Of a stretch of 64,000 bases of DNA, positions 1 to 53,339 are shown piece by piece (position 1 is the stretch's first letter; each line of letters begins with the position of its first letter). A program made the position numbers and the translations under genes. This DNA comes from a virus. The stretch covers positions 1 to 64,000 of the IMG/VR virus record IMGVR_UViG_3300043313_001220; one strand, written 5' to 3'. The notes under the pieces are model-generated. The model had not been told where the DNA came from, did no database searches, and saw only the letters and a program-made list of their open reading frames with translations.

Positions 1-70
1 GCCAGCGGTGCCCGTCTCCGCGCCAGCGGTGCCCGTCTCCGCGCCAGCGGTGCCCGTCTCCGCGCCAGCG
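1..70 (+). repeat. 21-bp tandem repeat GCCAGCGGTGCCCGTCTCCGC, about 3.3 copies (coding)
   Basis: Exact copies start at 1, 22 and 43, partial copy at 64. Confidence 0.95.
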
Positions 71-2015: not shown

Positions 2016-2306
2016 ATGGCAAGCAATGAAGGCCACGTACATTGGTCGCGGTTGGCCGACGAGACGGTCAACTACCTCGACCAAGAGTTGCAGGCCACCA
2101 GCGATGTCAGCAACATCAAGACAGATGCTGTGAACATCGGCGACGACCCGATCGGCCTCATCCGCATCTGTGCCGTGGGGTCGATCGAGACCGGGCTCGC
2201 GCTACCGACCGAAGGATGGGAGGCCATCCCCGGCACCGACCCGATCCTTGAAGCCCGGATGGACGCCCACTACCCCTCCGACTACATCCGCGTCCGACAG
2301 CAGTGA
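2016..2306 (+). CDS. hypothetical protein
   Basis: GAGGA RBS, packs tightly between neighbours. Confidence 0.6.
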   Translation: MASNEGHVHWSRLADETVNYLDQELQATSDVSNIKTDAVNIGDDPIGLIRICAVGSIETGLALPTEGWEAIPGTDPILEARMDAHYPSDYIRVRQQ

Positions 2307-2319
2307 GGAGGCCGACACC

Positions 2320-3435
2320 ATGACCAACTATGCGCAGGGCAGCACCGCAGTCTTGAGTGCGCAATTCCGCGAATTCGCGCCGGACGGCCCGCTCACCAAC
2401 GTCGACAACCTGACGATCACCATCGTGCCGCTGCTCGGCGGTACGGCGGCGCTGGCGACCACCAGTGTCGGGATTACCAACCCGGCGACCGGCATCTACG
2501 GCTACCCGTGGTTCGTGCCGTTCAGCATCGCTACCGGGCAGTATGTCGTCATCTGGGAGGGTGACGATCCCGGCACCGGCGACCCGGTGACGGCCACCGA
2601 GCAAACCGGCGTCACACTCCCCAACGCTACCGGCGGCGGGATCGATGGCCCGTGCGGCTGGGACATCGACACCAGCTGTGTTGCGAACTGGGACGAACTC
2701 CCGGAAGCGGCACAGATGGTCGGCTATCACCTGTCCACCCTCATGCTCTGGGCGTTGACCGGCCGCCGGTTCGGCCAATGCGAGATCACTGTGCAGCCAT
2801 GCATGGAGCGCAAGCGCTGGCCGCTGTACGAGACCTTCCCGGTGCCCAGCTACGGGGGTGGCGGGGCAGGCGGGTTCGGCGGGTTCTTTCCGTACATCCT
2901 GGACGGCTCGTGGTTCAACGGCGGATGCGGGGGCGGATGCCGCTGCCGCGCCCGATGCGAGGTCGCCCTGGACGGGCCGACCGACACCGCCAGCATCTTG
3001 GAGGTCACCACCCACGGGGAGGTGATCGTACCGACCGCCTACCAGATCCAGAACGGCTACCTGCTGGTGCGCACAGACGGCCACTGCTGGCCCGGCTGCG
3101 TCAACTACAGTGACCAGGACCCTGCCGCGTTCACGGTCAATTACCTGCGCGGTGAGGAGCTGCCGCCGGGGTTGCAGATCGCCGCGGGCATCCTCGCGGG
3201 CGAGTTCGCGATGTCATGCGCGGGGGACGACAACTGTCGGCTGCCGGCACGGTTGACGTCGCTGACCCGCCAGGGTGTGAGTGTTCAGGTGGCGACGATC
3301 AACAGCTACCTCGATCTCGGAATGACCGAGATCCCCGAGGTCGACGCGATCGTGGTAGCGCTGAACCCGTACCGCCAGGTCGAGCGGTCCCGGGTGTATT
3401 CGCTGGACCGGCCGCGCCCGCGCATGGTGACCTGA
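2320..3435 (+). CDS. head-to-tail adaptor with an extra N-terminal Ig-like domain
   Basis: GAGGAGG RBS; LWALTGRRFG and CRLPARLTSLTRQGV motifs resemble actinophage adaptors. Confidence 0.6.
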   Translation: MTNYAQGSTAVLSAQFREFAPDGPLTNVDNLTITIVPLLGGTAALATTSVGITNPATGIYGYPWFVPFSIATGQYVVIWEGDDPGTGDPVTATEQTGVTLPNATGGGIDGPCGWDIDTSCVANWDELPEAAQMVGYHLSTLMLWALTGRRFGQCEITVQPCMERKRWPLYETFPVPSYGGGGAGGFGGFFPYILDGSWFNGGCGGGCRCRARCEVALDGPTDTASILEVTTHGEVIVPTAYQIQNGYLLVRTDGHCWPGCVNYSDQDPAAFTVNYLRGEELPPGLQIAAGILAGEFAMSCAGDDNCRLPARLTSLTRQGVSVQVATINSYLDLGMTEIPEVDAIVVALNPYRQVERSRVYSLDRPRPRMVT

Positions 3436-3980
3436 TGTCGGTTTCCGACAAGGTGATCAAACCGGTGGCGCACCGACTGCTGGCCTGCCTGGACGAGCAG
3501 CGGTTGAAGATCGACGCCGACGTGCGCCCCGCGTTGATCGGCCTGCGACCCGGCAACGTGATGGATCTATTGCTGTCGATGAACGACAGCGAATGCTGCA
3601 AGGGCATCGCCTGGGTGCGGGTCGATGGGGTGTTCCCGTCCGCCGACAACTTTCCGAACCCCGACCTATTGCCGATGCAGCGATGCGGCATCCGCCAATG
3701 GGCGATCCGGTTCGAGATCGGCATCGCCCGGTGTGCCCCGACGCCGGGAGCACGAAAGATGACCACCACCGACGTGTGGAACACCGCCGCGGACCAGATC
3801 TACGACGACTTCGCGGCCCTGGACAAGACCATCTGCTGCTTCGCGGACGGCTACCGTTGGGCGTGGGTGGCCGGGCAGTGGACGCCTCTGCCGACCGGCG
3901 GTGCCTGTATGGGCGGCTCGATCACGCTGACGGTGGCGGCCCCGGCCTGCAACTGCGGGCCCGACGACTCGCCGTCTTGA
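3435..3980 (+). CDS. putative tail terminator/neck protein
   Basis: TGATG coupling; Cys-rich; synteny after the adaptor. Confidence 0.5.
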   Translation: MSVSDKVIKPVAHRLLACLDEQRLKIDADVRPALIGLRPGNVMDLLLSMNDSECCKGIAWVRVDGVFPSADNFPNPDLLPMQRCGIRQWAIRFEIGIARCAPTPGARKMTTTDVWNTAADQIYDDFAALDKTICCFADGYRWAWVAGQWTPLPTGGACMGGSITLTVAAPACNCGPDDSPS

Positions 3981-29124: not shown

Positions 29125-29735
29125 CAGGCCACCCACCGCAGATCGGTCGGCCACTGGACCGACGAGCGGTTCAGCCACGCCAACGCCTGCTTGTCGGGCA
29201 CCCGCCGCTGGCCGGTGAGCAGGTCCAATCCCATGGCCGCCAGCACGATGGCGTCGGATTCATCATCGTTGACCTTGCCATATTCGGGCCACAGCTCGGC
29301 AACCGCCGCCATGACCCGCGCCTTCTTCTTGTCGATCCCGCCGTTTCCCGTCGCATACCCCTTGAGGACGGGCGAGGGGACGATCGCGAACGGTATGCGC
29401 ACCTGTGCCAGACGGCTGACCACGTCGTGGTACAGCTGAATGCGTTCGACCAGGCCGCCGTAGCCACGGCTGACGTCGGGCGCTTCGATCACCACCAGAT
29501 CGGGCCGACGATATGGGGCACCCGTGGCGCGCATCTCATCCGTGGTCAGCAGCGACGTCTCGGCGATCTGGTGGCCGAGCCACATGATCTCGTCGACCCG
29601 ATCGGCCAACGGCAGCTTGGTGATGCCAGGTTTGCCGATCTTCGCAGTGCGCTTGACGAGCCCTGCGGTTGCGATGCCGGCACAGGTCAGACCGAGGTCT
29701 TCACCGACGATGTGGGGTTGTCGCTCAAGGTGCAT
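29124..29735 (-). CDS. RuvC-like Holliday junction resolvase
   Basis: IVGEDLGLT, VVIEAP, PVLKGYATGNG and DDESDA. Confidence 0.85.
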   Translation of the reverse strand: MHLERQPHIVGEDLGLTCAGIATAGLVKRTAKIGKPGITKLPLADRVDEIMWLGHQIAETSLLTTDEMRATGAPYRRPDLVVIEAPDVSRGYGGLVERIQLYHDVVSRLAQVRIPFAIVPSPVLKGYATGNGGIDKKKARVMAAVAELWPEYGKVNDDESDAIVLAAMGLDLLTGQRRVPDKQALAWLNRSSVQWPTDLRWVA

Positions 29736-29754
29736 CGCGTGGGTGTCTCCTGCC

Positions 29755-30133
29755 GGATCGGGGTGGGGTGGGTAGGCATGTCGTGTGGAGTCGACGAGGA
29801 CTTGGGTAGGGGTGGGCGGCGCTGTCGTGGGTTTAGGCTCGGGGCTGCTTGGCTTGTCGCCATGTGGGTGGGCCTGGGTTGTCGGGGAATGGGCACGGGT
29901 AGGGAAGGCTTGGCATGTCGAGCCGGATGGAGGGGTCAGGACCGGAAAGTCGTTGAGTGGGGCAGGCATGGGCTGACCTGGCTTGGCAAGTCGGACGGTT
30001 GGGGATCGGATTGTCGCAGGGGGGGGAAGGGACGTGGACTGTCGTCGGGTCAGGCCCGGTCGGTGCGGGGTCGGTGTGTCGTACGGGGGGCAGGTCAGAA
30101 CTGTCGCGCGATGTGGCCGGGATTGGTTTGTCA
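29755..30133 (-). repeat. pentamer-periodic array 1, 12 units (C/T)GAC-(NNNNC)n
   Basis: Anchors 23-44 nt apart; 54 of 61 in-register pentamers end in C (hand count); directly downstream of the RAMP gene. Confidence 0.9.
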
Positions 30134-30135
30134 GA

Positions 30136-30166
30136 CGGGGGCGGGTCGCCGCAGCGCCCGCCCCCG
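30136..30166 (-). other. 10-bp GC hairpin between the RAMP stop codon and array 1
   Basis: CGGGGGCGGG-N11-CCCGCCCCCG. Confidence 0.75.
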
Positions 30167-30175
30167 GTTGGTCGA

Positions 30176-30922
30176 TCAGGCCGCCGCGACAGCCTTCTCC
30201 TTCTTACCCTCGCCGATCTGGTCCCACTGGGTGACGGTATACCGCCCGTAGCCCTGGCTGCGGCTGGCACCGATCCCCTGCTGGCCGCCGGTCACCCAAA
30301 TGGTCGCCCATTCTTTCTGGGTGAAGTCGTAATCGCTGATCACCGTGAACCCGACGACAGCGTCATCGACATACTCGGTGTACTGGATGCCGGTCTGGCG
30401 GGTGATCGGGTTGCGCGGGAACGACTGGAGGATGCCGGACGGCTCCAGGACCGCCTCGATCTTCTTCGTGTCCGCGCTGCGCTGGCCGACAAACAGCTTG
30501 TCCTCCAGCACGACGATGTGCTCGGCGATGAACGACAGCGTCCCCTTCTTGGTCGCGCCGTAACGCGCCGGGAGGTTGTCGACGGCGCGGGCGACCGACG
30601 CGGCCTCCTTCAGAGCGGCCTTCAGATGACGGCCTTCGATGTACAGGCCGTCCTGCGGGTCGCGCTTGAAGCCGTTCAGGTGGCGACGCTTGTCGACCTC
30701 CTTCAGCGCCTCATCCTCAGTGACACCGCGGGCGGCCATGACCTCGGCGACCGCCTGGGCGATGATGTCCTCCTTGTCGAGGCCCATCTTGCTCTTCAGC
30801 CAGCCCTCGGCGACCTTCGGGTCGGACGGGGTGCCGCCCATCAGTCGCTCGATCTGGATCTCTCCGGCGAACCGGAACGGGTAGACCCGGTTGATGTCAG
30901 CGGCGAACACATTCTTGGCCAT
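30176..30922 (-). CDS. solitary RAMP-superfamily (Cas7/Csm3-like) protein, 248 aa
   Basis: beta1+Gly IERLMGG; LYIEGRHLKAALKEA (cf. IPGSSLKGxLR); TEYVD..FTV; C-terminal G-rich loop GIGASRSQGYGRY; RBS AGAGAGGG. Confidence 0.8.
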   Translation of the reverse strand: MAKNVFAADINRVYPFRFAGEIQIERLMGGTPSDPKVAEGWLKSKMGLDKEDIIAQAVAEVMAARGVTEDEALKEVDKRRHLNGFKRDPQDGLYIEGRHLKAALKEAASVARAVDNLPARYGATKKGTLSFIAEHIVVLEDKLFVGQRSADTKKIEAVLEPSGILQSFPRNPITRQTGIQYTEYVDDAVVGFTVISDYDFTQKEWATIWVTGGQQGIGASRSQGYGRYTVTQWDQIGEGKKEKAVAAA

Positions 30923-30965
30923 CTGTGGCCCTCTCTGTGGTGTGGGTGGTGCGGTGTGCCCCAGA

Positions 30966-30994
30966 AGCATATCCCGTGGCACATGGGGTGTCAA
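30966..30994 (-). promoter_or_regulatory. near-consensus promoter TTGACA-N17-TATGCT driving RAMP plus array 1
   Basis: Read directly from the sequence. Confidence 0.8.
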
Positions 30995-31854
30995 GCAGTG
31001 TGTTGGTGGAGCCCAGCTCGGGCTAGCTGGCGCGGGTCGCCAACCCGCCAACGTGCGATCCGGCAGTAGTCGGCGGACAGGTCGACCGAGATGCCGACAC
31101 GTCCGAGGGCTTTCGCAGCCAGAGCTGTTGTGCCGCCCCCCCCCATCGGGTCCAGCACTACGCCGCCGGGCGGGCACCAGCCCTCAATGATGGCGAGCGG
31201 CCACTCCAACGGAAACGCTGAATGGTGCCGCACCCCGAGATACTCCGGCACGCGCAACGCCGCCGACTTGACCGCATGTACCGACCGCATTCCGGGAATG
31301 GATCGATCGGCCTTGCGGCTGGCATAATAATCGATTCGCTGGCTAAAGTGATACCAGGTCTCATGCGTGCGTGCCGCCCGGTCCCTGGCCGGATCGGGAA
31401 CCGCGTTCGGCTTATCCCAGATCACCTCCGCCCGCAAGGTTAATCTGAGATCATCCACACATGCGATGGCGTAGCGCTGGGGCAGCTGGAGCAGGCTTTT
31501 AGGACTGCCGGTCGGTACGCACCGGTTGTTGTGGCCGATGCCCTGCTTGCTGTTTGTGCCCGAGATAGTGGTGCGCGTACCGCGGCCGTATTTGTCGCCC
31601 AGATTGACCCACAATGACCCGCGCGGTTTGAGTACCCGCAGCCACTCCCGCGTGCACCGGACCAGGCTGTCAACATATTCGCCGGGGGTGGGCTCGGCCC
31701 CGACCTGGCCTTCGTAGACCTCGCCGCCATCCTCATAAGCGCGCAGCGACCAATATGGCGGGCTGGTGATGATCAAATCCACCGAGCCGGTGGTCAGGGG
31801 CAACGCACCCGCGTCACCCCTGACCACCAACGCCGATCCGGTCAACGGGCGCAC
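30991..31854 (-). CDS. DNA methyltransferase (N4-cytosine/N6-adenine, beta class; SPPY suggests m4C)
   Basis: TSPPY, VNLGD, WDKPN, H.AFP and VVLDPMGGGGTT. Confidence 0.9.
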   Translation of the reverse strand: MRPLTGSALVVRGDAGALPLTTGSVDLIITSPPYWSLRAYEDGGEVYEGQVGAEPTPGEYVDSLVRCTREWLRVLKPRGSLWVNLGDKYGRGTRTTISGTNSKQGIGHNNRCVPTGSPKSLLQLPQRYAIACVDDLRLTLRAEVIWDKPNAVPDPARDRAARTHETWYHFSQRIDYYASRKADRSIPGMRSVHAVKSAALRVPEYLGVRHHSAFPLEWPLAIIEGWCPPGGVVLDPMGGGGTTALAAKALGRVGISVDLSADYCRIARWRVGDPRQLARAGLHQHTA

Positions 31855-33876: not shown

Positions 33877-35219
33877 CGCAGTTTGGCCGCCAATGCCTGC
33901 ATCTGTGCGACGGTGGCCAGCTGCCGGTCGACCCTGAACTCTTCGTGCAGCATCCGGTCGATGTCGGCGGTTTTAAGCTTTTTCATCCCCGCCGCCCCAA
34001 GCAGCTGCATCATCGCATCCTTGCGCGCCTGTGGGTCGTCGGTGGCCGCGATCTGCTCCTCCGGCTCACCGTCCTCCCACGGCGCGCTGACCGCCGGCAG
34101 GGTCGTCGACGCCTCTGGAGTGGCCTCCGGGTCAGCGGGAGGGTCGAGCAGGGCCTCGGATTCCCCCGGGTCCTCCTGCCAAGCTTCCTGGACATCCAGG
34201 CGGGCGTCACGGGCCTTCTTCGTATCGATCCGGGCCTGCGCCCGCTGGGCCTCCGACTCCTGCGTGCGCTGGGCGGTCAGCACCTGCTGGCGGGCCTGCC
34301 AGGCGTCGATCAGCTGCTGGTGGTCGCCGGTCTCCTTGATCCTCTTGCGGATCCCAGCCATCTCCGCGTTGGTCGTGGCCTTCGCGATCGCCTCCAGCGC
34401 CTTCGGGATGTTGGGGGCGGGAGGCACGGGGGGCACGGGGGGCACGGGAGGCACGGGAGGCACGGTGGCCGGAGCCGCCTCGATTGCCGTGGCGCGGGAG
34501 GGTTCGATGGCCGCCCGCATGGCAGCAGCCTGCTGGTCGCGGCCAAGCTGCAACACGGTGCTGACCGCGTCTGAGCCGACCTGCACCGTTCGGGAGGTCA
34601 CCCCGTCTAACAACAGGATCGGCACGTTGTAATCTTTGGTGACCACTTTTCTCTCTTTGCGGTCGTATTGGCGGGACTCGCGGTTCTCCAGCAACAAGCG
34701 GGCGGGCAACGGCATGCGGATGCCCGCGATCATGTCGAACAGCTGGACCATCTCGCCGGCCGCATAATACCCATGGGTCTCAAGCCCCCACACACCCAGG
34801 CCCGGCACGTCGGCCAAAAGCAAATCGACCCGGGTGGTCGGCTTACATCTCCGAGTTTCCGGGTCGCAGTCACAAGTGTCCCCATAGATCTGGTCCTGAA
34901 CGCCGTCACAGCGGCGGCTGCACACGCCACCCGACCACAGCTCGTATGTCGGGTCAACAATCTGGGGAGGGATGAAGACTGGAATCAGCGCCGCATCGGT
35001 CACCACCTGCCACTGCTTGCCCCGGGGGGCGTCCGCCCATACCTCCATCTCTCCACCGTAGAGCGCTGCCACCTCTTCCACGAGGTGCTGGGCCGCACTT
35101 GTAAAGCGCAGAGTATCCAACCGGCTGGGCCGTTCCTTGCCCGAGCTGGTCTTGACCTTGCGGCCCAGCCGGATGCGGCCCACCCGTACTGAGCGGATCT
35201 GGAGGTCTCGAATGGCCAT
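33873..35219 (-). CDS. Gp3-like (recombination directionality factor-like) protein, putative recombinase
   Basis: VGRIRLG..RP..LDT.RFTS, RRCDG, CKPTTR and W.LETHG; (PPV)5 linker. Confidence 0.7.
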   Translation of the reverse strand: MAIRDLQIRSVRVGRIRLGRKVKTSSGKERPSRLDTLRFTSAAQHLVEEVAALYGGEMEVWADAPRGKQWQVVTDAALIPVFIPPQIVDPTYELWSGGVCSRRCDGVQDQIYGDTCDCDPETRRCKPTTRVDLLLADVPGLGVWGLETHGYYAAGEMVQLFDMIAGIRMPLPARLLLENRESRQYDRKERKVVTKDYNVPILLLDGVTSRTVQVGSDAVSTVLQLGRDQQAAAMRAAIEPSRATAIEAAPATVPPVPPVPPVPPVPPAPNIPKALEAIAKATTNAEMAGIRKRIKETGDHQQLIDAWQARQQVLTAQRTQESEAQRAQARIDTKKARDARLDVQEAWQEDPGESEALLDPPADPEATPEASTTLPAVSAPWEDGEPEEQIAATDDPQARKDAMMQLLGAAGMKKLKTADIDRMLHEEFRVDRQLATVAQMQALAAKLR

Positions 35220-35772: not shown

Positions 35773-36131
35773 GGGTCGTCGTGTGGAACGGGCCGGTTAG
35801 TCGTGTGGTCTGGGCCGGTGTCTGACGGCCTCGGAATGTCGGCGGGATTGGACGGTACTGGGTGGGCAAGTCGGGCGGCGTACGGGTTGGCAAGTCGATA
35901 AGAACGGATTCGCAGGGTCGTGCGGGCTGGGCGGACTTGTCCGGGGCTGGCATGTCGGCGCGGGAGGGGGGAGGGGGGGAATGTCGGGCTGTGCGGGTTC
36001 GCGGGCGGATGGCCGGGAATGTCGTACGGGCGGGCTGGGATTGCGACGGAGGGGCAAGTCGGTGCGGCGGGGTGTGGATGGGGAAGTCGGGTTGGGACGC
36101 ACCGGTGGGGTTCGGGTTGTCGGGTTGGTCA
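35773..36131 (-). repeat. pentamer-periodic array 2, about 13 units
   Basis: Same grammar; the first anchor is the TGA stop of the upstream gene; ends at the RBS of the endoVII gene. Confidence 0.9.
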
Positions 36132-50569: not shown

Positions 50570-50606
50570 CACGCCGCTTGCCACGCCCGGTGGCGTGTGG
50601 CAGGAT
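50567..50606 (+). promoter_or_regulatory. promoter TTGCCA-N17-CAGGAT with TGACAC box, directly upstream of array 3
   Basis: TGACACGCCGC-TTGCCA; first GAC unit starts 5-6 nt after the -10. Confidence 0.7.
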
Positions 50607-50610
50607 AGGG

Positions 50611-51858
50611 GGACAAACCAGGCCAGTGCGCCTCCCGACTAGCCAGTTCGTACCACACGACAAGCCTGCCCCCCTCGCATCCGCTGCACACCGACAAGTC
50701 GTGCCGCCGCAAGCCCAGCCCACCCCCCGCTCGCCGACACATCTAGCCGTACCACACGACAAGCCTGCCCAGTGCAATGCCGCCCAGCCTTGACGACACC
50801 CCAGACCGACATATGCCCGACTGTTCACATCCACCCTACCGCCGTCCGACACCGCACGCCACACCCTCGCGCTCCGTACGACCAACCTCTCCGAATCTTG
50901 CCGACGCGCACGACATGCCGCTCTCGACACCGCCCGACCCGCACCGACACAGCACGCCGGTCCGACCCAACCGACACGCCCGGCCACCGCAGGACTCACG
51001 ACAGATCTGCCCAGCGCTCACCCATGCGACTACCCGTCCCACAGCTGGTCGGCCCCTACCCCGACACCCGACATGGCCCATCTGTCCCAGCCGCCCGACA
51101 TGCCATCCCAGCCGAGTCCTCCCCGACACTCCACCCTCAGCCGCAACGCCCCGAGACGACAGATCTGTTCCGCCCACCCCATGTGACTACCCTGCCCGGC
51201 CCTGCTCCAATATCGACTACCCGACGCAACCCCAGAGCCCCCGCTGACATATCCAGCCCGCCCGCCCCAGGCGACCAGCCACCCCAGCTCCTGTGTCGAC
51301 AACCCGATCGGCGTCACGCCAGACCCAACCCGACGACAGCCCAGACCCGCACTGTCTTACCCCGTGCTCGGACCGCCCATCCCACCCGACAAGCCCACCC
51401 GGGCCGGTACAACCCCAGCCGTGCCCCACCCCCCGACTACCCTACACACCCCAGTGCGGATCCGACACGCCATCTCATCGCACCGCCGCCGACTACCCCG
51501 GCCCTTCGTGCCCTGTCTCCGACGACCCGTGCCATCCGACAAGCCCAGCCGCGCCGATGCAACCCCACTGCGACCATCCATCCCGCGTCATTGCGGGCCC
51601 GACACGCCATCCCTGGCATCCCCGACCCGGTACCGACAAGCCCAGCCGCCGCGCTTCATATCGACAAGCCGACCCACGCCACCCCGTGTCCTCTCCCGGC
51701 CCGTCCGACAGTGCGTCCCCACGCCGCCCAGTGGCTTCCCCACCCATCCCCCATGGCACGCCCGATCAAAGCGGCGTACTGACGAGCCCGTCCCCACCCG
51801 GCCCCCCGACAAGCCGAGCGAACTCCAACCCAGCCCCTACGACAACCCGCTGGACCGA
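50611..51858 (+). repeat. pentamer-periodic array 3, about 39 units (putative ncRNA array)
   Basis: Same grammar throughout; internal 23-bp duplication at 50649-50671 and 50748-50770. Confidence 0.92.
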
Positions 51859-51872
51859 TAGGGAAGAGAGAT

Positions 51873-53339
51873 ATGGACAGGCGATACGAGAGTGCCGATG
51901 TCACAGCGATCTGGAGCGACCAGGGCCGCAACCTGGTCGAACGCAGCATCTGGGTCGAGGTGATGCGAGCCCAGCGCGAAGCCGGAATCGACATCCCGGA
52001 AGACCAGATCGACGCGTACGCCGACCTGGCAGCCAGCCAGGCACTGCTGGACCCGGACCACGAGGAAGCCCTGCTCGAAACGCAGGACATCGCCGAGCTG
52101 GAGAGAGAGACCAAACATGACCTGTACGCCCGACTGCGGTGGTTCAACGAGAGTGTCGGAGGCGACCACGCCCACCGCGGGTTGACCTCGGCCGACATCA
52201 CCGAGAACACCCAGCAGATCCAGATCGTCGCCTCCGCCGAACTGCTGCTAGAACACGCTGAGCAGGTCCTGCGCCGGATGTACGAGCGTGCCGGGGTGTT
52301 CGCCACGGTGCCGATCGTCGCCCGCACCCATGGCCGACCCGCGCAGCTGACCACCATTGGCAAGCGGATCACCGACTGGATGCAGGAGCTGATGGGGGCG
52401 ATGGTCACTCTCCAGGGGGCCATCGAAGGTTACGTGCCGCGGGGGATCAAAGGCGCGGTCGGCACCAGTGCCGACATGGCGCGGACGTTGCTGTCCGGCC
52501 TGCCGGAGGGCAGCCCCGCCAGCAGGTGGGTGGCCGCCCGCCTGGCCGCCGGCACGCTGGACGACCGGGTGTCGTCCAAGCTGGCAGGCGAGACCACATC
52601 GATGCTGTCGACCGGGCAGTGTTACCCACGCTCGGCCGACCTGCCGATCATCTCCGCGACGTTGCAGCTCGCCGCCGCGTGCGGCACGGTCGCCACTGCC
52701 GTGCGGCTGATGTCCGCGCTCGGCCTGGCGGTCGAGAACCCCGACGCGCATGTCGGGTCGTCGGCCATGCCCCACAAGAGCAACCCGCGCTACAGCGAGC
52801 GGGTCTGCAGCCTCCAGGTGGTCGCACGCGGGTATGCGGGAATGTTGCAGGAGACCGCCGGCACGCAGTGGCTGGAAGGTGACGTGTCGACCTCTGCGGC
52901 CCGCCGGATCGCCCTGCCGGGGCTATTCCACACGGTGGATTCGATGCTGGCCAACACCGCCTGGGTGTTGGACCATCTGGTGTTCGACCTGGAGGCGATC
53001 AAGGACGAGCGCGACCTGTGGATGCCGGAGATGGCATCCGGCGCGCTGTTGGCCGCACTGGTCGAGAACGGGGTGCCACGTCAGAAGGCACACGAGGTAC
53101 TGCGGCACCATTATCGGCAGATCGGCGGCCCGGACTGCGAGAGCGACCGATCGGGGACGCTGATCTACCACCTGACCAGTGAAGACGCAGAGTTCCGGCT
53201 GACTGCGGAGCAGACCCAGGCCGCGTTCGACCCGGAGATGTTGGTTGGTTCTGCGGTGGCGATCGTGGAGGCTGTGGTCGGTGCGGAGCTCGGCGAGCTG
53301 CTGGATGCCGACCCGGAATGGCCTGGCGACCTGGTGTGA
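51873..53339 (+). CDS. purB: adenylosuccinate lyase
   Basis: TKHD, H.GLTS.D, ARTHGRPAQ.TT.GKR, GAVGT and the signature GSSAMPHKSNP..SE. Confidence 0.92.
   Translation: MDRRYESADVTAIWSDQGRNLVERSIWVEVMRAQREAGIDIPEDQIDAYADLAASQALLDPDHEEALLETQDIAELERETKHDLYARLRWFNESVGGDHAHRGLTSADITENTQQIQIVASAELLLEHAEQVLRRMYERAGVFATVPIVARTHGRPAQLTTIGKRITDWMQELMGAMVTLQGAIEGYVPRGIKGAVGTSADMARTLLSGLPEGSPASRWVAARLAAGTLDDRVSSKLAGETTSMLSTGQCYPRSADLPIISATLQLAAACGTVATAVRLMSALGLAVENPDAHVGSSAMPHKSNPRYSERVCSLQVVARGYAGMLQETAGTQWLEGDVSTSAARRIALPGLFHTVDSMLANTAWVLDHLVFDLEAIKDERDLWMPEMASGALLAALVENGVPRQKAHEVLRHHYRQIGGPDCESDRSGTLIYHLTSEDAEFRLTAEQTQAAFDPEMLVGSAVAIVEAVVGAELGELLDADPEWPGDLV

What the first reader, a model, noticed from the sequence alone, without database searches (positions are those of the whole stretch)
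29755..30994. Candidate non-CRISPR RNA-guided system: lone RAMP/Cas7-like gene plus a pentamer-coded ncRNA array
Seen: a self-contained minus-strand unit of promoter (TTGACA-N17-TATGCT), a 248-aa ORF, a 10-bp GC hairpin and 12 non-identical repeat units, ending at the ruvC RBS. The ORF carries LYIEGRHLKAALKEA and the G-rich loop GIGASRSQGYGRY. Units read (C/T)GAC + (NNNNC)n + a short tail, e.g. CGAC ttgcC aagcC aggtC agccC atgcC tgccC cactC; 54 of 61 in-register pentamers end in C, often CC. No cas1, cas2, cas6, cas10 or CRISPR repeat occurs in the window. Established: these motifs typify RAMP (Cas7/Csm3/Cmr) RNA-binding backbone subunits, which polymerise along guide RNA with a fixed per-subunit footprint. 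Inference: the protein filaments on ~22-45-nt units, one subunit per pentamer. The fixed C would be the protein anchor, the variable bases would encode a possibly gapped target, and CGAC would mark processing sites. From memory and unverified, this resembles recently reported viral RAMP plus GGY/NN pentamer-RNA (VIPR-type) systems. Here the sense strand is C-rich and the units are delimited by CGAC, which would make it a distinct variant.
Basis: partly seen in the sequence, partly recalled or inferred. Interest (0 to 1): 0.96.

Follow-up and report, generated by a model that had tools for sequence, protein, structure and literature searches.

The report
Phage VIPR system with C-anchored arrays
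A complete 94-kb actinobacterial-type phage carries a lone Cas7-like protein and four arrays of five-base repeats, which together form a member of the recently described VIPR RNA-guided silencing systems, probably a branch whose guide RNAs are anchored by C instead of G.

Summary
A 248-aa gene (30176-30922, minus strand) lies behind a TTGACA-N17-TATGCT site. After it come a strong hairpin and an array of 9-11 units of the form GAC + (N-N-s-Y-C)n; 89-93% of its pentamers end in C, against 48% expected.

The predicted protein fold is Cas7/Csm3. More than 1,000 homologues exist. In about 55 of 76 fetched loci the same C-rich, CGAC-delimited array abuts the gene.

VIPR systems (Vipr RAMP plus GGY/NN guide RNAs, read with one skipped base) were published in 2026, so the kind is known. 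The window holds three further arrays (35.8, 40.2 and 50.6-51.9 kb).

The one-base-skip code holds in this family. Two guides from relatives match rival copies of this gene exactly, in codon phase, and one matches this window's gene at 30795-30818. Skips of 0, 2 or 3 gave no exact match.

The unusual point is that the C-rich strand is always the local coding strand, whereas canonical Vipr genes carry G-rich arrays on theirs. I read this as a C-anchored sense-strand guide (about 0.65), but the transcribed strand is not shown. No targets were found for this phage's own guides. This scan had already reached the same reading for the 50.6-kb array of this genome.

The parts
30966..30994 (-). Promoter-like site TTGACA-N17-TATGCT upstream of the RAMP gene
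   Evidence: 10 of 12 consensus positions. It is the only sigma-70-like match on either strand in 29300-31200. This is a consensus match only; function was not tested.
30176..30922 (-). vipr-like gene: a 248-aa Cas7-type RAMP (here called Vipr-B family), with G-loop GIGASRSQGYGRY
   Evidence: AF2 model pLDDT 77. Csm3/Cas7 are the top structural matches. More than 1,100 homologues, all unnamed.
30795..30818 (+). Predicted target site inside this phage's own vipr gene for a guide carried by a rival phage (locus L020)
   Evidence: The site matches TTnAGnCAnCCnTCnGCnACnTT at 16 of 16 specified bases. It lies on the antisense strand of codons K-V-A-E-G-W-L-K, and every skipped base falls on a wobble position.
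30132..30170 (-). GC-rich hairpin between the vipr stop codon and array A, with no U-tract on either strand
   Evidence: MFE -32.5 kcal/mol, z = -4.1. Similar hairpins bracket downstream arrays in relatives.
29736..30131 (-). Array A (the finding): GAC-delimited units of N-N-s-Y-C pentamers, ending at the ribosome-binding site of the RuvC-like gene
   Evidence: 89-93% of pentamers end in C; period-5 autocorrelation is reached by 0 of 5000 shuffles.
35775..36128 (-). Array C: same grammar, lying between a stop codon (TGA-C) and the ribosome-binding site of an endonuclease VII gene
   Evidence: (58 pentamers, 95% end in C).
40142..40263 (-). Array D: a small array of about 4 units that starts at a stop codon (TGA-C) and is followed by a hairpin
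50630..51860 (+). Array B: the largest array (about 35 units, 185 pentamers). It is C-rich on the plus strand and lies between two plus-strand genes; it is preceded by a hairpin and followed by an adenylosuccinate-lyase gene.

Best explanation
This is a VIPR-type RNA-guided DNA-binding system of a complete 94-kb phage. It consists of one Cas7-like RAMP gene (a divergent 'Vipr-B' family) and four guide arrays (A, the finding, plus B, C and D; about 61 units in all).

Proposed mechanism:
1. The arrays are transcribed together with the operons they sit in, giving C-rich RNA (inferred).
2. This RNA is cut at or near the GAC delimiters into units of 5'-GAC-(N-N-s-Y-C)x4-10 (inferred).
3. One protein subunit binds each pentamer, burying the s-Y-C triplet and exposing the NN pair (by analogy with the SUSP1 Vipr cryo-EM structures).
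4. The exposed dinucleotides pair with double-stranded DNA, skipping one base after each pair. A guide therefore reads codon positions 1-2 and ignores the wobble base (shown by sequence for guides of two relatives).
5. Binding blocks transcription of genes of competing phages (by analogy). In relatives the targets include the conserved AEGWLK and G-loop segments of rival vipr-B genes, among them the gene in this window.

The branch differs from published VIPR in two ways. The fixed letters on the gene's sense strand are C rather than GGY. The units are short and headed by GAC instead of being followed by a long structured 3' tail.
For: - RAMP fold.
- Family size: more than 1,100 homologues and 732 representative clusters.
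- Arrays in relatives: about 55 of 76 loci have an adjacent array. Pooling 570 CGAC-anchored sites from 22 arrays, C5 is about 83% C, C4 is 62-75% C, and CGAC spacing is mostly 5n+3.
- Code: 247 guides of at least 7 pentamers were searched all-against-all. Exact matches outside arrays occur only with a skip of 1: two guides, 31 sites, all inside vipr-B genes and in codon phase. Skips of 0, 2 and 3 gave none (details).
- Virus context: the record is complete, with terminal repeats; no Cas1, Cas2 or canonical Vipr is present.
- Sense strand, arrays in relatives: arrays fill the gap between co-directional genes from stop codon to ribosome-binding site. Clean units lie 359 on the vipr sense strand against 10 on the other, and 7 of those 10 form an L038 array that is co-directional with local minus-strand genes.
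- Sense strand, this genome: all four arrays are C-rich on the local coding strand, although one lies in an oppositely oriented gene block.
- Sense strand, signals: the only promoter-like site near array A is on the sense strand. L047 has array-then-T6 terminator in the sense direction.
- Canonical comparison: canonical Vipr genes (SUSP1, L058-A, G410-A) carry G-rich GGY/NN arrays on their own sense strand. The sense-strand letter therefore tracks the protein type.
- Published VIPR mechanism: bioRxiv 10.64898/2026.04.26.720920 and 10.64898/2026.04.26.720927.
Against: - There are no RNA data, so the transcribed strand, the processing and the protein-RNA binding are all inferred.
- Read on the other strand, the arrays are GG(G/C)NN. 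That fits the 'NNNGG' and 'staggered array' variants already mentioned in the VIPR paper.
- Terminator-like signals are equivocal: 2 sense-type against 2 antisense-type among 54 arrays. In arrays A and B the hairpin lies where an antisense transcript would end.
- A C-rich, untranslated sense RNA should attract Rho.
- Sequence homology to SUSP1 Vipr is not significant (hhalign E = 0.015, probability 3%).
- No target was found for any guide of this phage.
- Array A is less regular than arrays in relatives.
Confidence: 0.6

Rival explanations
1. It is the same VIPR-type system, but the functional guides are G-rich RNAs transcribed antisense to vipr and to the flanking genes: 5'-(GG-s-NN)n-GTC. 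On this reading it is an ordinary member of a published VIPR type (NNNGG repeats, 'staggered' arrays), and the 'C-anchored' reading merely looks at the wrong strand.
For: - All published VIPR RNAs are G-anchored, and the paper lists NNNGG, YNNNG and NNNNG variants and staggered arrays with shared ends.
- In the low-GC relative L058 the antisense reading gives mostly GGY.
- In arrays A and B the hairpin sits at the antisense 3' end. The L042 hairpin carries a T4 run in the antisense direction.
- SUSP1 repeat tracts end in GGGTAGTT, which resembles the antisense unit end GGxTAGTC.
Against: - It needs a separate antisense promoter inside the 5' end of a different downstream gene at every array. 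There is no room between the array and the ribosome-binding site, and no promoter-like site was found.
- It does not explain why arrays are always antisense to their neighbours near Vipr-B and in four separate places of this genome, while arrays of canonical Vipr genes are always sense.
- On the antisense strand, position 3 is G/C rather than Y in the high-GC members.
Confidence: 0.3
2. The arrays are not guides. They are C-rich intercistronic regulatory RNA (for example Rho-loading or translational-control tracts), and the RAMP protein coats them to set expression of the downstream genes. The variable bases would then be merely unconstrained.
For: - Arrays run exactly from a stop codon to the next ribosome-binding site.
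- C-rich, G-poor untranslated RNA is the classical Rho substrate (established knowledge).
- No target was found for this phage's guides.
Against: - Two guides of relatives match rival vipr genes at 16 of 16 and 14 of 14 specified bases, at 12 and 19 sites, in codon phase and only under the one-base-skip rule.
- The unit structure with delimiters and variable NN positions parallels validated vrRNAs.
Confidence: 0.05
3. It is a chance or compositional artefact: a proline-rich coding or low-complexity C-rich spacer next to an unrelated RRM-fold protein.
For: The genome has 67% G+C, and spurious proline-rich ORFs cover the arrays.
Against: - The period is 5, not 3, and 0 of 5000 shuffles reach it.
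- The same grammar recurs next to homologues that share as little as 28-35% identity (L053, L057, L058, L076), including a Microcystis phage.
Confidence: 0.02

Closest known systems
VIPR type II system of Escherichia phage SUSP1 (Vipr + vap1 + four vrRNAs; bioRxiv 10.64898/2026.04.26.720920, 10.64898/2026.04.26.720927, 10.64898/2026.10.15.759431)
   Same: - Phage-borne, with no cas genes.
- A small Cas7-like RAMP with a G-loop ending in G-R-[FY].
- Flanking arrays of 5-nt repeats with three constrained and two variable positions.
- The one-base-skip code aligned to codons.
- Guides aimed at rival phages' vipr genes.
   Different: - The protein is not detectably homologous by sequence (hhalign E = 0.015).
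- The G-loop has A-S where SUSP1 has D177-W178.
- In SUSP1 the G-rich GGY/NN strand is the vipr sense strand; here the sense strand is C-rich.
- Units have 4-10 repeats headed by GAC, against 9-16 repeats followed by a pseudoknotted 3' tail.
- There are four dispersed arrays with about 61 units.
- No vap gene was recognised.
Other published VIPR types and non-canonical repeat clusters (NNNGG / YNNNG / NNNNG repeats and staggered arrays in 10.64898/2026.04.26.720920; GAC/NN, CAC/NN, WGT/NN and TGH/NN in 10.64898/2026.10.21.760802)
   Same: These are divergent Vipr-like folds with 5-nt arrays whose fixed letters depart from GGY. Units abut without long tails.
   Different: None of the texts I could read names a C-C anchor or says that an array is antisense to vipr. 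The supplementary tables are not held, so I could not check whether this protein family is already among the 667 classified systems.
Cas7-family backbone subunits of type III and type VII CRISPR effectors (Csm3, Cmr4, type VII Cas7)
   Same: These are the best structural matches (E = 2e-6; Z = 9.7-10.2). They share the RRM core, helix 1, the thumb-like hairpin and the glycine-rich loop.
   Different: - No CRISPR array and no Cas10, Cas5, Cas6, Cas1 or Cas2.
- A 5-nt rather than a 6-nt footprint.
- The gene stands alone.
- The target code is gapped.
Two-Vipr loci found here (L058 = IMGVR_UViG_3300033150_000513; G410 = IMGVR_UViG_3300037483_001116)
   Same: They contain a homologue of this window's protein with a C-rich, CGAC-delimited array on its sense strand.
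   Different: They also contain a canonical SUSP1-like Vipr (BLASTP E = 5e-9 and 8e-10) with G-rich GGY/NN arrays on its sense strand. This window's genome has only the Vipr-B type.

Membership tests
VIPR system | Protein with the RAMP fold (RRM core, glycine-rich loop, thumb) | tested here: met
   AF2 model pLDDT 77, pTM 0.74. Foldseek against the PDB: Csm3 / type VII Cas7, E = 2e-6. VIA-align wide search: the top 23 hits are all Cas7-type RAMPs, Z = 7-10.2. The G-loop GIGASRSQGYGRY is invariant at G216, G218, R221, G226 and R227.
VIPR system | Sequence homology to described Vipr proteins | tested here: inconclusive
   Family profile against SUSP1 Vipr: hhalign E = 0.015, probability 3%, aligned only over the C-terminal strand, helix and G-loop. 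Against the L058 canonical Vipr: E = 0.031. The paper's PSI-BLAST set could not be consulted.
VIPR system | Minimal non-CRISPR locus, mostly viral or proviral | tested here: met
   Complete virus record with direct terminal repeats. No Cas1 or Cas2. No CRISPR-DR or other array family in the Rfam scan of 29-52.5 kb.
VIPR system | Flanking arrays of tandem 5-nt repeats with three constrained and two variable positions | tested here: met
   Arrays occur next to homologues in about 55 of 76 loci.
VIPR system | GGY fixed triplet on the guide RNA, encoded on the vipr sense strand as in SUSP1 | tested here: not met
   The sense strand reads N-N-s-Y-C. The complementary strand reads GG(G/C)NN with Y at position 3 in only about 40% of pentamers. 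In SUSP1, L058-A and G410-A the sense strand is G-rich. Which strand is actually transcribed is not known.
VIPR system | Non-contiguous target code with one skipped base per dinucleotide | tested here: met
   Shown for the protein family, not for this window's own guides. Exact matches to vipr-B genes occur only at skip 1, and the skipped base is the wobble base. No significant target was found for this window's guides.
VIPR system | Repeat tract followed by a conserved, structured 3' tail | tested here: not met
   Units abut and are separated only by GAC (plus 0-4 nt in array A). No Rfam family or ribozyme was found. Hairpins bracket whole arrays, not single units.
VIPR system | vrRNAs expressed and co-purifying with the protein; programmable repression | not testable with these tools
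   This needs RNA sequencing, pull-down and reporter assays.
CRISPR-Cas class 1 effector | Cas7 together with Cas5, a large subunit and a CRISPR array | tested here: not met
   There is a single RAMP gene in 94 kb. No Cas1 or Cas2. No interspaced long repeats were seen.

The most novel reading that the evidence does not exclude
Vipr-B proteins read a second, orthogonal VIPR alphabet. Their guides are C-anchored sense-strand RNAs, 5'-GAC-(NN-s-Y-C)n, the mirror image of GGY/NN. They use the same one-base-skip DNA code, and they coexist with canonical G-anchored VIPR in some phage genomes (L058, G410) without cross-talk. Because each array ends at the ribosome-binding site of the next gene, the protein may also tune translation of that gene, which in relatives is vipr itself.
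Probability: 0.6. Interest if true: 0.75.

Novelty: new variant of a known kind. Interest (0 to 1): 0.6.

Why it matters
VIPR was described only in 2026 and has been tested in a few proteobacterial systems. This locus adds four things.

1. The gapped, codon-phased code also operates in a large clade (more than 1,000 proteins) that is undetectable by sequence and lies mostly in phages and prophages of actinobacteria.
2. That clade's guides also target rival copies of the effector gene.
3. The RNA alphabet may have flipped from G to C. If so, it would provide a second, orthogonal programmable DNA-binding scaffold and would bear on how RAMPs evolved base-specific pockets.
4. A single phage can carry about 2 kb of guides spread over four operons.

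If the guides turn out to be antisense G-rich RNAs instead, the locus is an ordinary new member with an unusual, obligately antisense gene layout.

Tried and rejected
**No result**
- Megablast of the locus against phage records found nothing.
- Pfam gave only a sub-threshold ANTAR match at residues 48-74, and PHROGs gave nothing.
- The PDB sequence search gave only noise.

**Targets of this window's own guides**
- The local all-against-all search stayed at chance level.
- Exact IMG/VR scans with two 8-pentamer guides of array B gave 12 and 14 hits, nearly all in low-GC unrelated contigs. The one high-GC hit (L083) was not backed by any other guide.
- The 7-pentamer guide of array A gave no hit in 5 host-type genomes or in 401 genomes of the same class.

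**Strand tests that did not decide**
- Counts of canonical terminators came out 2 against 2.
- Hairpin positions fit either strand.
- The loss of SUSP1's G-contacting D177 and W178 looked telling, but the canonical L058 Vipr also lacks D177.

**Ideas dropped**
- GTCG also delimits the canonical G410 array: its 3-4 copies are what chance predicts (the estimate is my own).
- The mini-array in L110 sits among tRNA genes: ARAGORN finds none.

**Accessory gene**
- The gene upstream of the array in relatives is a conserved unknown family (A2, 34-45% identity), but it is absent from this genome. I do not count it as part of the system here.
Full report
**1. The observation**

- A TTGACA-N17-TATGCT site lies at 30994..30966. 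It is the only sigma-70-like match on either strand in 29300-31200.
- A 248-aa ORF runs 30922..30176.
- A hairpin lies at 30170..30132 (MFE -32.5 kcal/mol, z = -4.1).
- A C-rich tract then runs to the ribosome-binding site of a RuvC-like resolvase gene (phrog_159, E = 3.9e-20).
- The gene upstream of the promoter is an N6/N4 DNA methylase (PF01555, E = 1.8e-30).

Parsed from (C/T)GAC, the tract has 9-11 units of at least three pentamers. Of its 45-56 pentamers, 89-93% end in C and 64-69% have C at position 4; C makes up 48% of the region. C autocorrelation peaks at lags 5, 10, 15 and 20, and none of 5000 shuffles reaches the observed value.

**2. The protein**

Pfam, PHROGs and the PDB sequence search give nothing useful. 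The family is nevertheless large: more than 1,100 homologues by word-seeded search and 732 representative clusters by profile search, all unnamed.

An AlphaFold2 model built on a 30-sequence alignment has pLDDT 77. Foldseek against the PDB returns Csm3 and type VII Cas7 subunits at E = 2e-6. An independent all-against-all structural search puts Cas7-type RAMPs in its top 23 places, Z = 7-10.2. In the viral structure library the best hits are unnamed or 'RAMP superfamily' phage and archaeal-virus proteins.

The protein is therefore a stand-alone Cas7-like RAMP. The genome is a complete 94,374-bp virus record with terminal repeats. It has no Cas1, no Cas2, no second RAMP and no canonical Vipr.

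**3. What is known**

VIPR systems were published in 2026.
- A phage-borne Vipr RAMP polymerises on vrRNAs made of GGY/NN pentamers, one protomer per repeat.
- The NN pairs read double-stranded DNA with one skipped base per pair, which silences transcription of competing phages, satellites and rival VIPR loci.
- Seven types are described, along with variant repeats (NNNGG, YNNNG, NNNNG) and 'staggered' arrays. A later survey adds GAC/NN, CAC/NN, WGT/NN and TGH/NN.

**4. Relatives**

I fetched 76 loci around homologues: 59 IMG/VR contigs, 12 genomes (mostly actinobacterial: Streptomyces, Streptacidiphilus, Nocardiopsis, Actinomadura, Streptosporangium and others) and 5 metagenome contigs.
- About 55 loci have a period-5 array touching the gene. 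It usually lies upstream, sometimes downstream, and reaches up to 1.8 kb.
- I pooled 570 CGAC-anchored sites from 22 arrays. The sense-strand unit is GAC followed by N-N-s-C-C pentamers: C5 about 83%, C4 62-75%, position 3 about 47% C. CGAC spacing is mostly 5n+3, that is 28, 33, 38, 43 or 48.
- The same grammar follows a 31%-identical homologue in Microcystis phage Mae-JY09.

**5. The window holds more arrays**

Three further arrays of the same grammar lie in the window.
- Array C, 35775-36128, minus strand: runs from a stop codon to the ribosome-binding site of an endonuclease VII gene.
- Array D, about 40142-40263, minus strand.
- Array B, about 50630-51860, plus strand: 185 pentamers, lying between two plus-strand genes, the second an adenylosuccinate lyase.

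Together the four arrays hold about 61 units and 321 pentamers.

**6. The code**

I took 247 distinct guides of at least 7 pentamers from all loci. I searched every non-array sequence in hand (about 1 Mb, both strands) for the NN dinucleotides spaced by 0, 1, 2 or 3 bases. Exact matches occur only with a skip of 1.
- One 8-pentamer guide (L020) matches 12 sites at 16 of 16 specified bases.
- One 7-pentamer guide (L047) matches 19 sites at 14 of 14.

All of these sites lie inside vipr-B genes of other loci, at the two most conserved motifs (AEGWLK and the G-loop QG[FY]GRY). In each case the skipped base falls on the wobble position.

About 0.04 chance hits are expected for the 16-base guide over the whole guide set, and about 0.7 for the 14-base guide (my own estimates). 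The L047 match therefore counts only through its position and codon phase.

The L020 guide matches this window's own gene at 30795-30818. Its own phage's gene differs only at the first dinucleotide (14 of 16). That leaves open either partial self-immunity or autoregulation.

This reproduces the published VIPR code and the published theme of guides aimed at rivals' vipr genes, in a clade that sequence searches do not connect to SUSP1 Vipr (hhalign E = 0.015).

**7. Which strand is the guide?**

This decides whether the locus is ordinary or a variant.

In the validated SUSP1 locus, which I read directly from KT454805, the GGY/NN tracts lie on the same strand as vipr. The same holds for two canonical Vipr genes found here.
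- L058 carries a 191-aa Vipr (BLASTP E = 5e-9 to SUSP1).
- G410 carries a 210-aa Vipr (BLASTP E = 8e-10 to SUSP1).

Both of these genomes also carry a Vipr-B gene, and its arrays are C-rich on its own sense strand.

Across the Vipr-B loci, clean units lie 359 to 10 on the gene's sense strand. Seven of the ten exceptions form one L038 array that is co-directional with local minus-strand genes. In this genome all four arrays are C-rich on the local coding strand, even though array B lies in the oppositely oriented gene block.

Arrays typically start at or within a few bases of the upstream stop codon and end at the next ribosome-binding site. That leaves no room for an antisense promoter. Sense transcription is needed anyway to express the downstream genes.

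The simplest rule covering every case is that arrays are transcribed with their neighbours and that the letter on that strand follows the protein type: G for canonical Vipr, C for Vipr-B.

Against this reading:
- Every published vrRNA is G-anchored.
- The complementary strand reads GG(G/C)NN, which fits the published NNNGG variant.
- Hairpins and terminator-like signals do not decide.
- C-rich untranslated RNA should attract Rho.

I put the sense, C-anchored reading at about 0.65 and the antisense, ordinary reading at about 0.3.

**8. What was not found**

No target was found for this phage's own guides. The local search, two exact IMG/VR scans and a scan of 406 actinobacterial genomes for the longest guide of array A gave only chance-level results or nothing.

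No accessory (vap) gene is evident. The conserved gene that precedes the array in relatives is absent from this genome.

**9. Verdict**

The system belongs to the VIPR kind, so it is not categorically new.

It is probably a distinct variant: C-anchored sense guides, GAC-headed short units without 3' tails, and four dispersed arrays. I could not check whether the published seven-type classification already contains this clade read from the other strand.

An earlier follow-up in this scan reached the same 'C-anchored VIPR' reading for array B of this same genome. I repeated the grammar and orientation tests independently, but that note is not independent evidence.

Noticed in passing
window 42009-43241, 44660-45925, 51873-53339: An adenylosuccinate-synthetase homologue (PF00709, E = 8e-34), a protein combining dUTPase and dCTP-deaminase-like regions with a weak nucleoside deoxyribosyltransferase match, and an adenylosuccinate lyase. 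This set is typical of phages that replace adenine with 2-aminoadenine (Z genome). The lyase gene starts right after array B. I did not check the PurZ-specific residues.
   Followed up: partly
window 41177-41283 (and 41255-41339): Rfam tRNA match (46 bits, E = 4.5e-7) spanning 107 nt, which is long for a tRNA, with a weak overlapping Y-RNA-like match. It lies at the switch between the leftward and rightward gene blocks.
   Followed up: partly
L058 (IMGVR_UViG_3300033150_000513) 2125-3860: One operon holds two RAMP genes. A canonical Vipr is followed by two G-rich GGY/NN vrRNAs with a shared tail (GGCAAGnCAAGGnAAGGA). A Vipr-B homologue is then followed by a C-rich CGAC array and a third G-rich vrRNA. 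All lie on one strand.
   Followed up: yes
L111 (IMGVR_UViG_3300037483_001116, 150939-153967) 343-1590: The 158-kb contig that carries Vipr-B locus L033 also has a canonical 210-aa Vipr. It is preceded by a canonical GGY/NN array of about 590 nt on its sense strand.
   Followed up: yes
L020 2932-2979 and L020 vipr about 3096-3120: The guide that matches 12 rival vipr genes perfectly also matches its own phage's vipr at 14 of 16 bases, with only the GAC-proximal dinucleotide differing. This could be self-avoidance through an end mismatch or autoregulation.
   Followed up: partly
L011 1703-2461, L017 1910-2494, L024 2038-2679, L026 1984-2685, L020 1862-2434, L066 2024-2809: In relatives the gene just upstream of the array is a conserved family with no Pfam or PHROG match (34-45% identity; motif LLAGWLD ... 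RRRLADMTKPDLLF). It may be an accessory gene of this VIPR clade. It is absent from this window's genome.
   Followed up: partly
window 30132-30170, 50585-50610, about 40100-40145; relatives L036, L042, L047, L053, L076, L078: Arrays that lie downstream of a gene are often bracketed by strong GC hairpins: gene stop, hairpin, array, hairpin or terminator. These could stabilise the ends of a precursor RNA.
   Followed up: partly
window 1-70 and 34418-34465: A perfect 21-nt tandem repeat (3.3 copies) lies at the very start of the record, next to the terminal repeat. A 9-nt repeat encodes a PPV repeat inside a 526-aa ORF.
   Followed up: no
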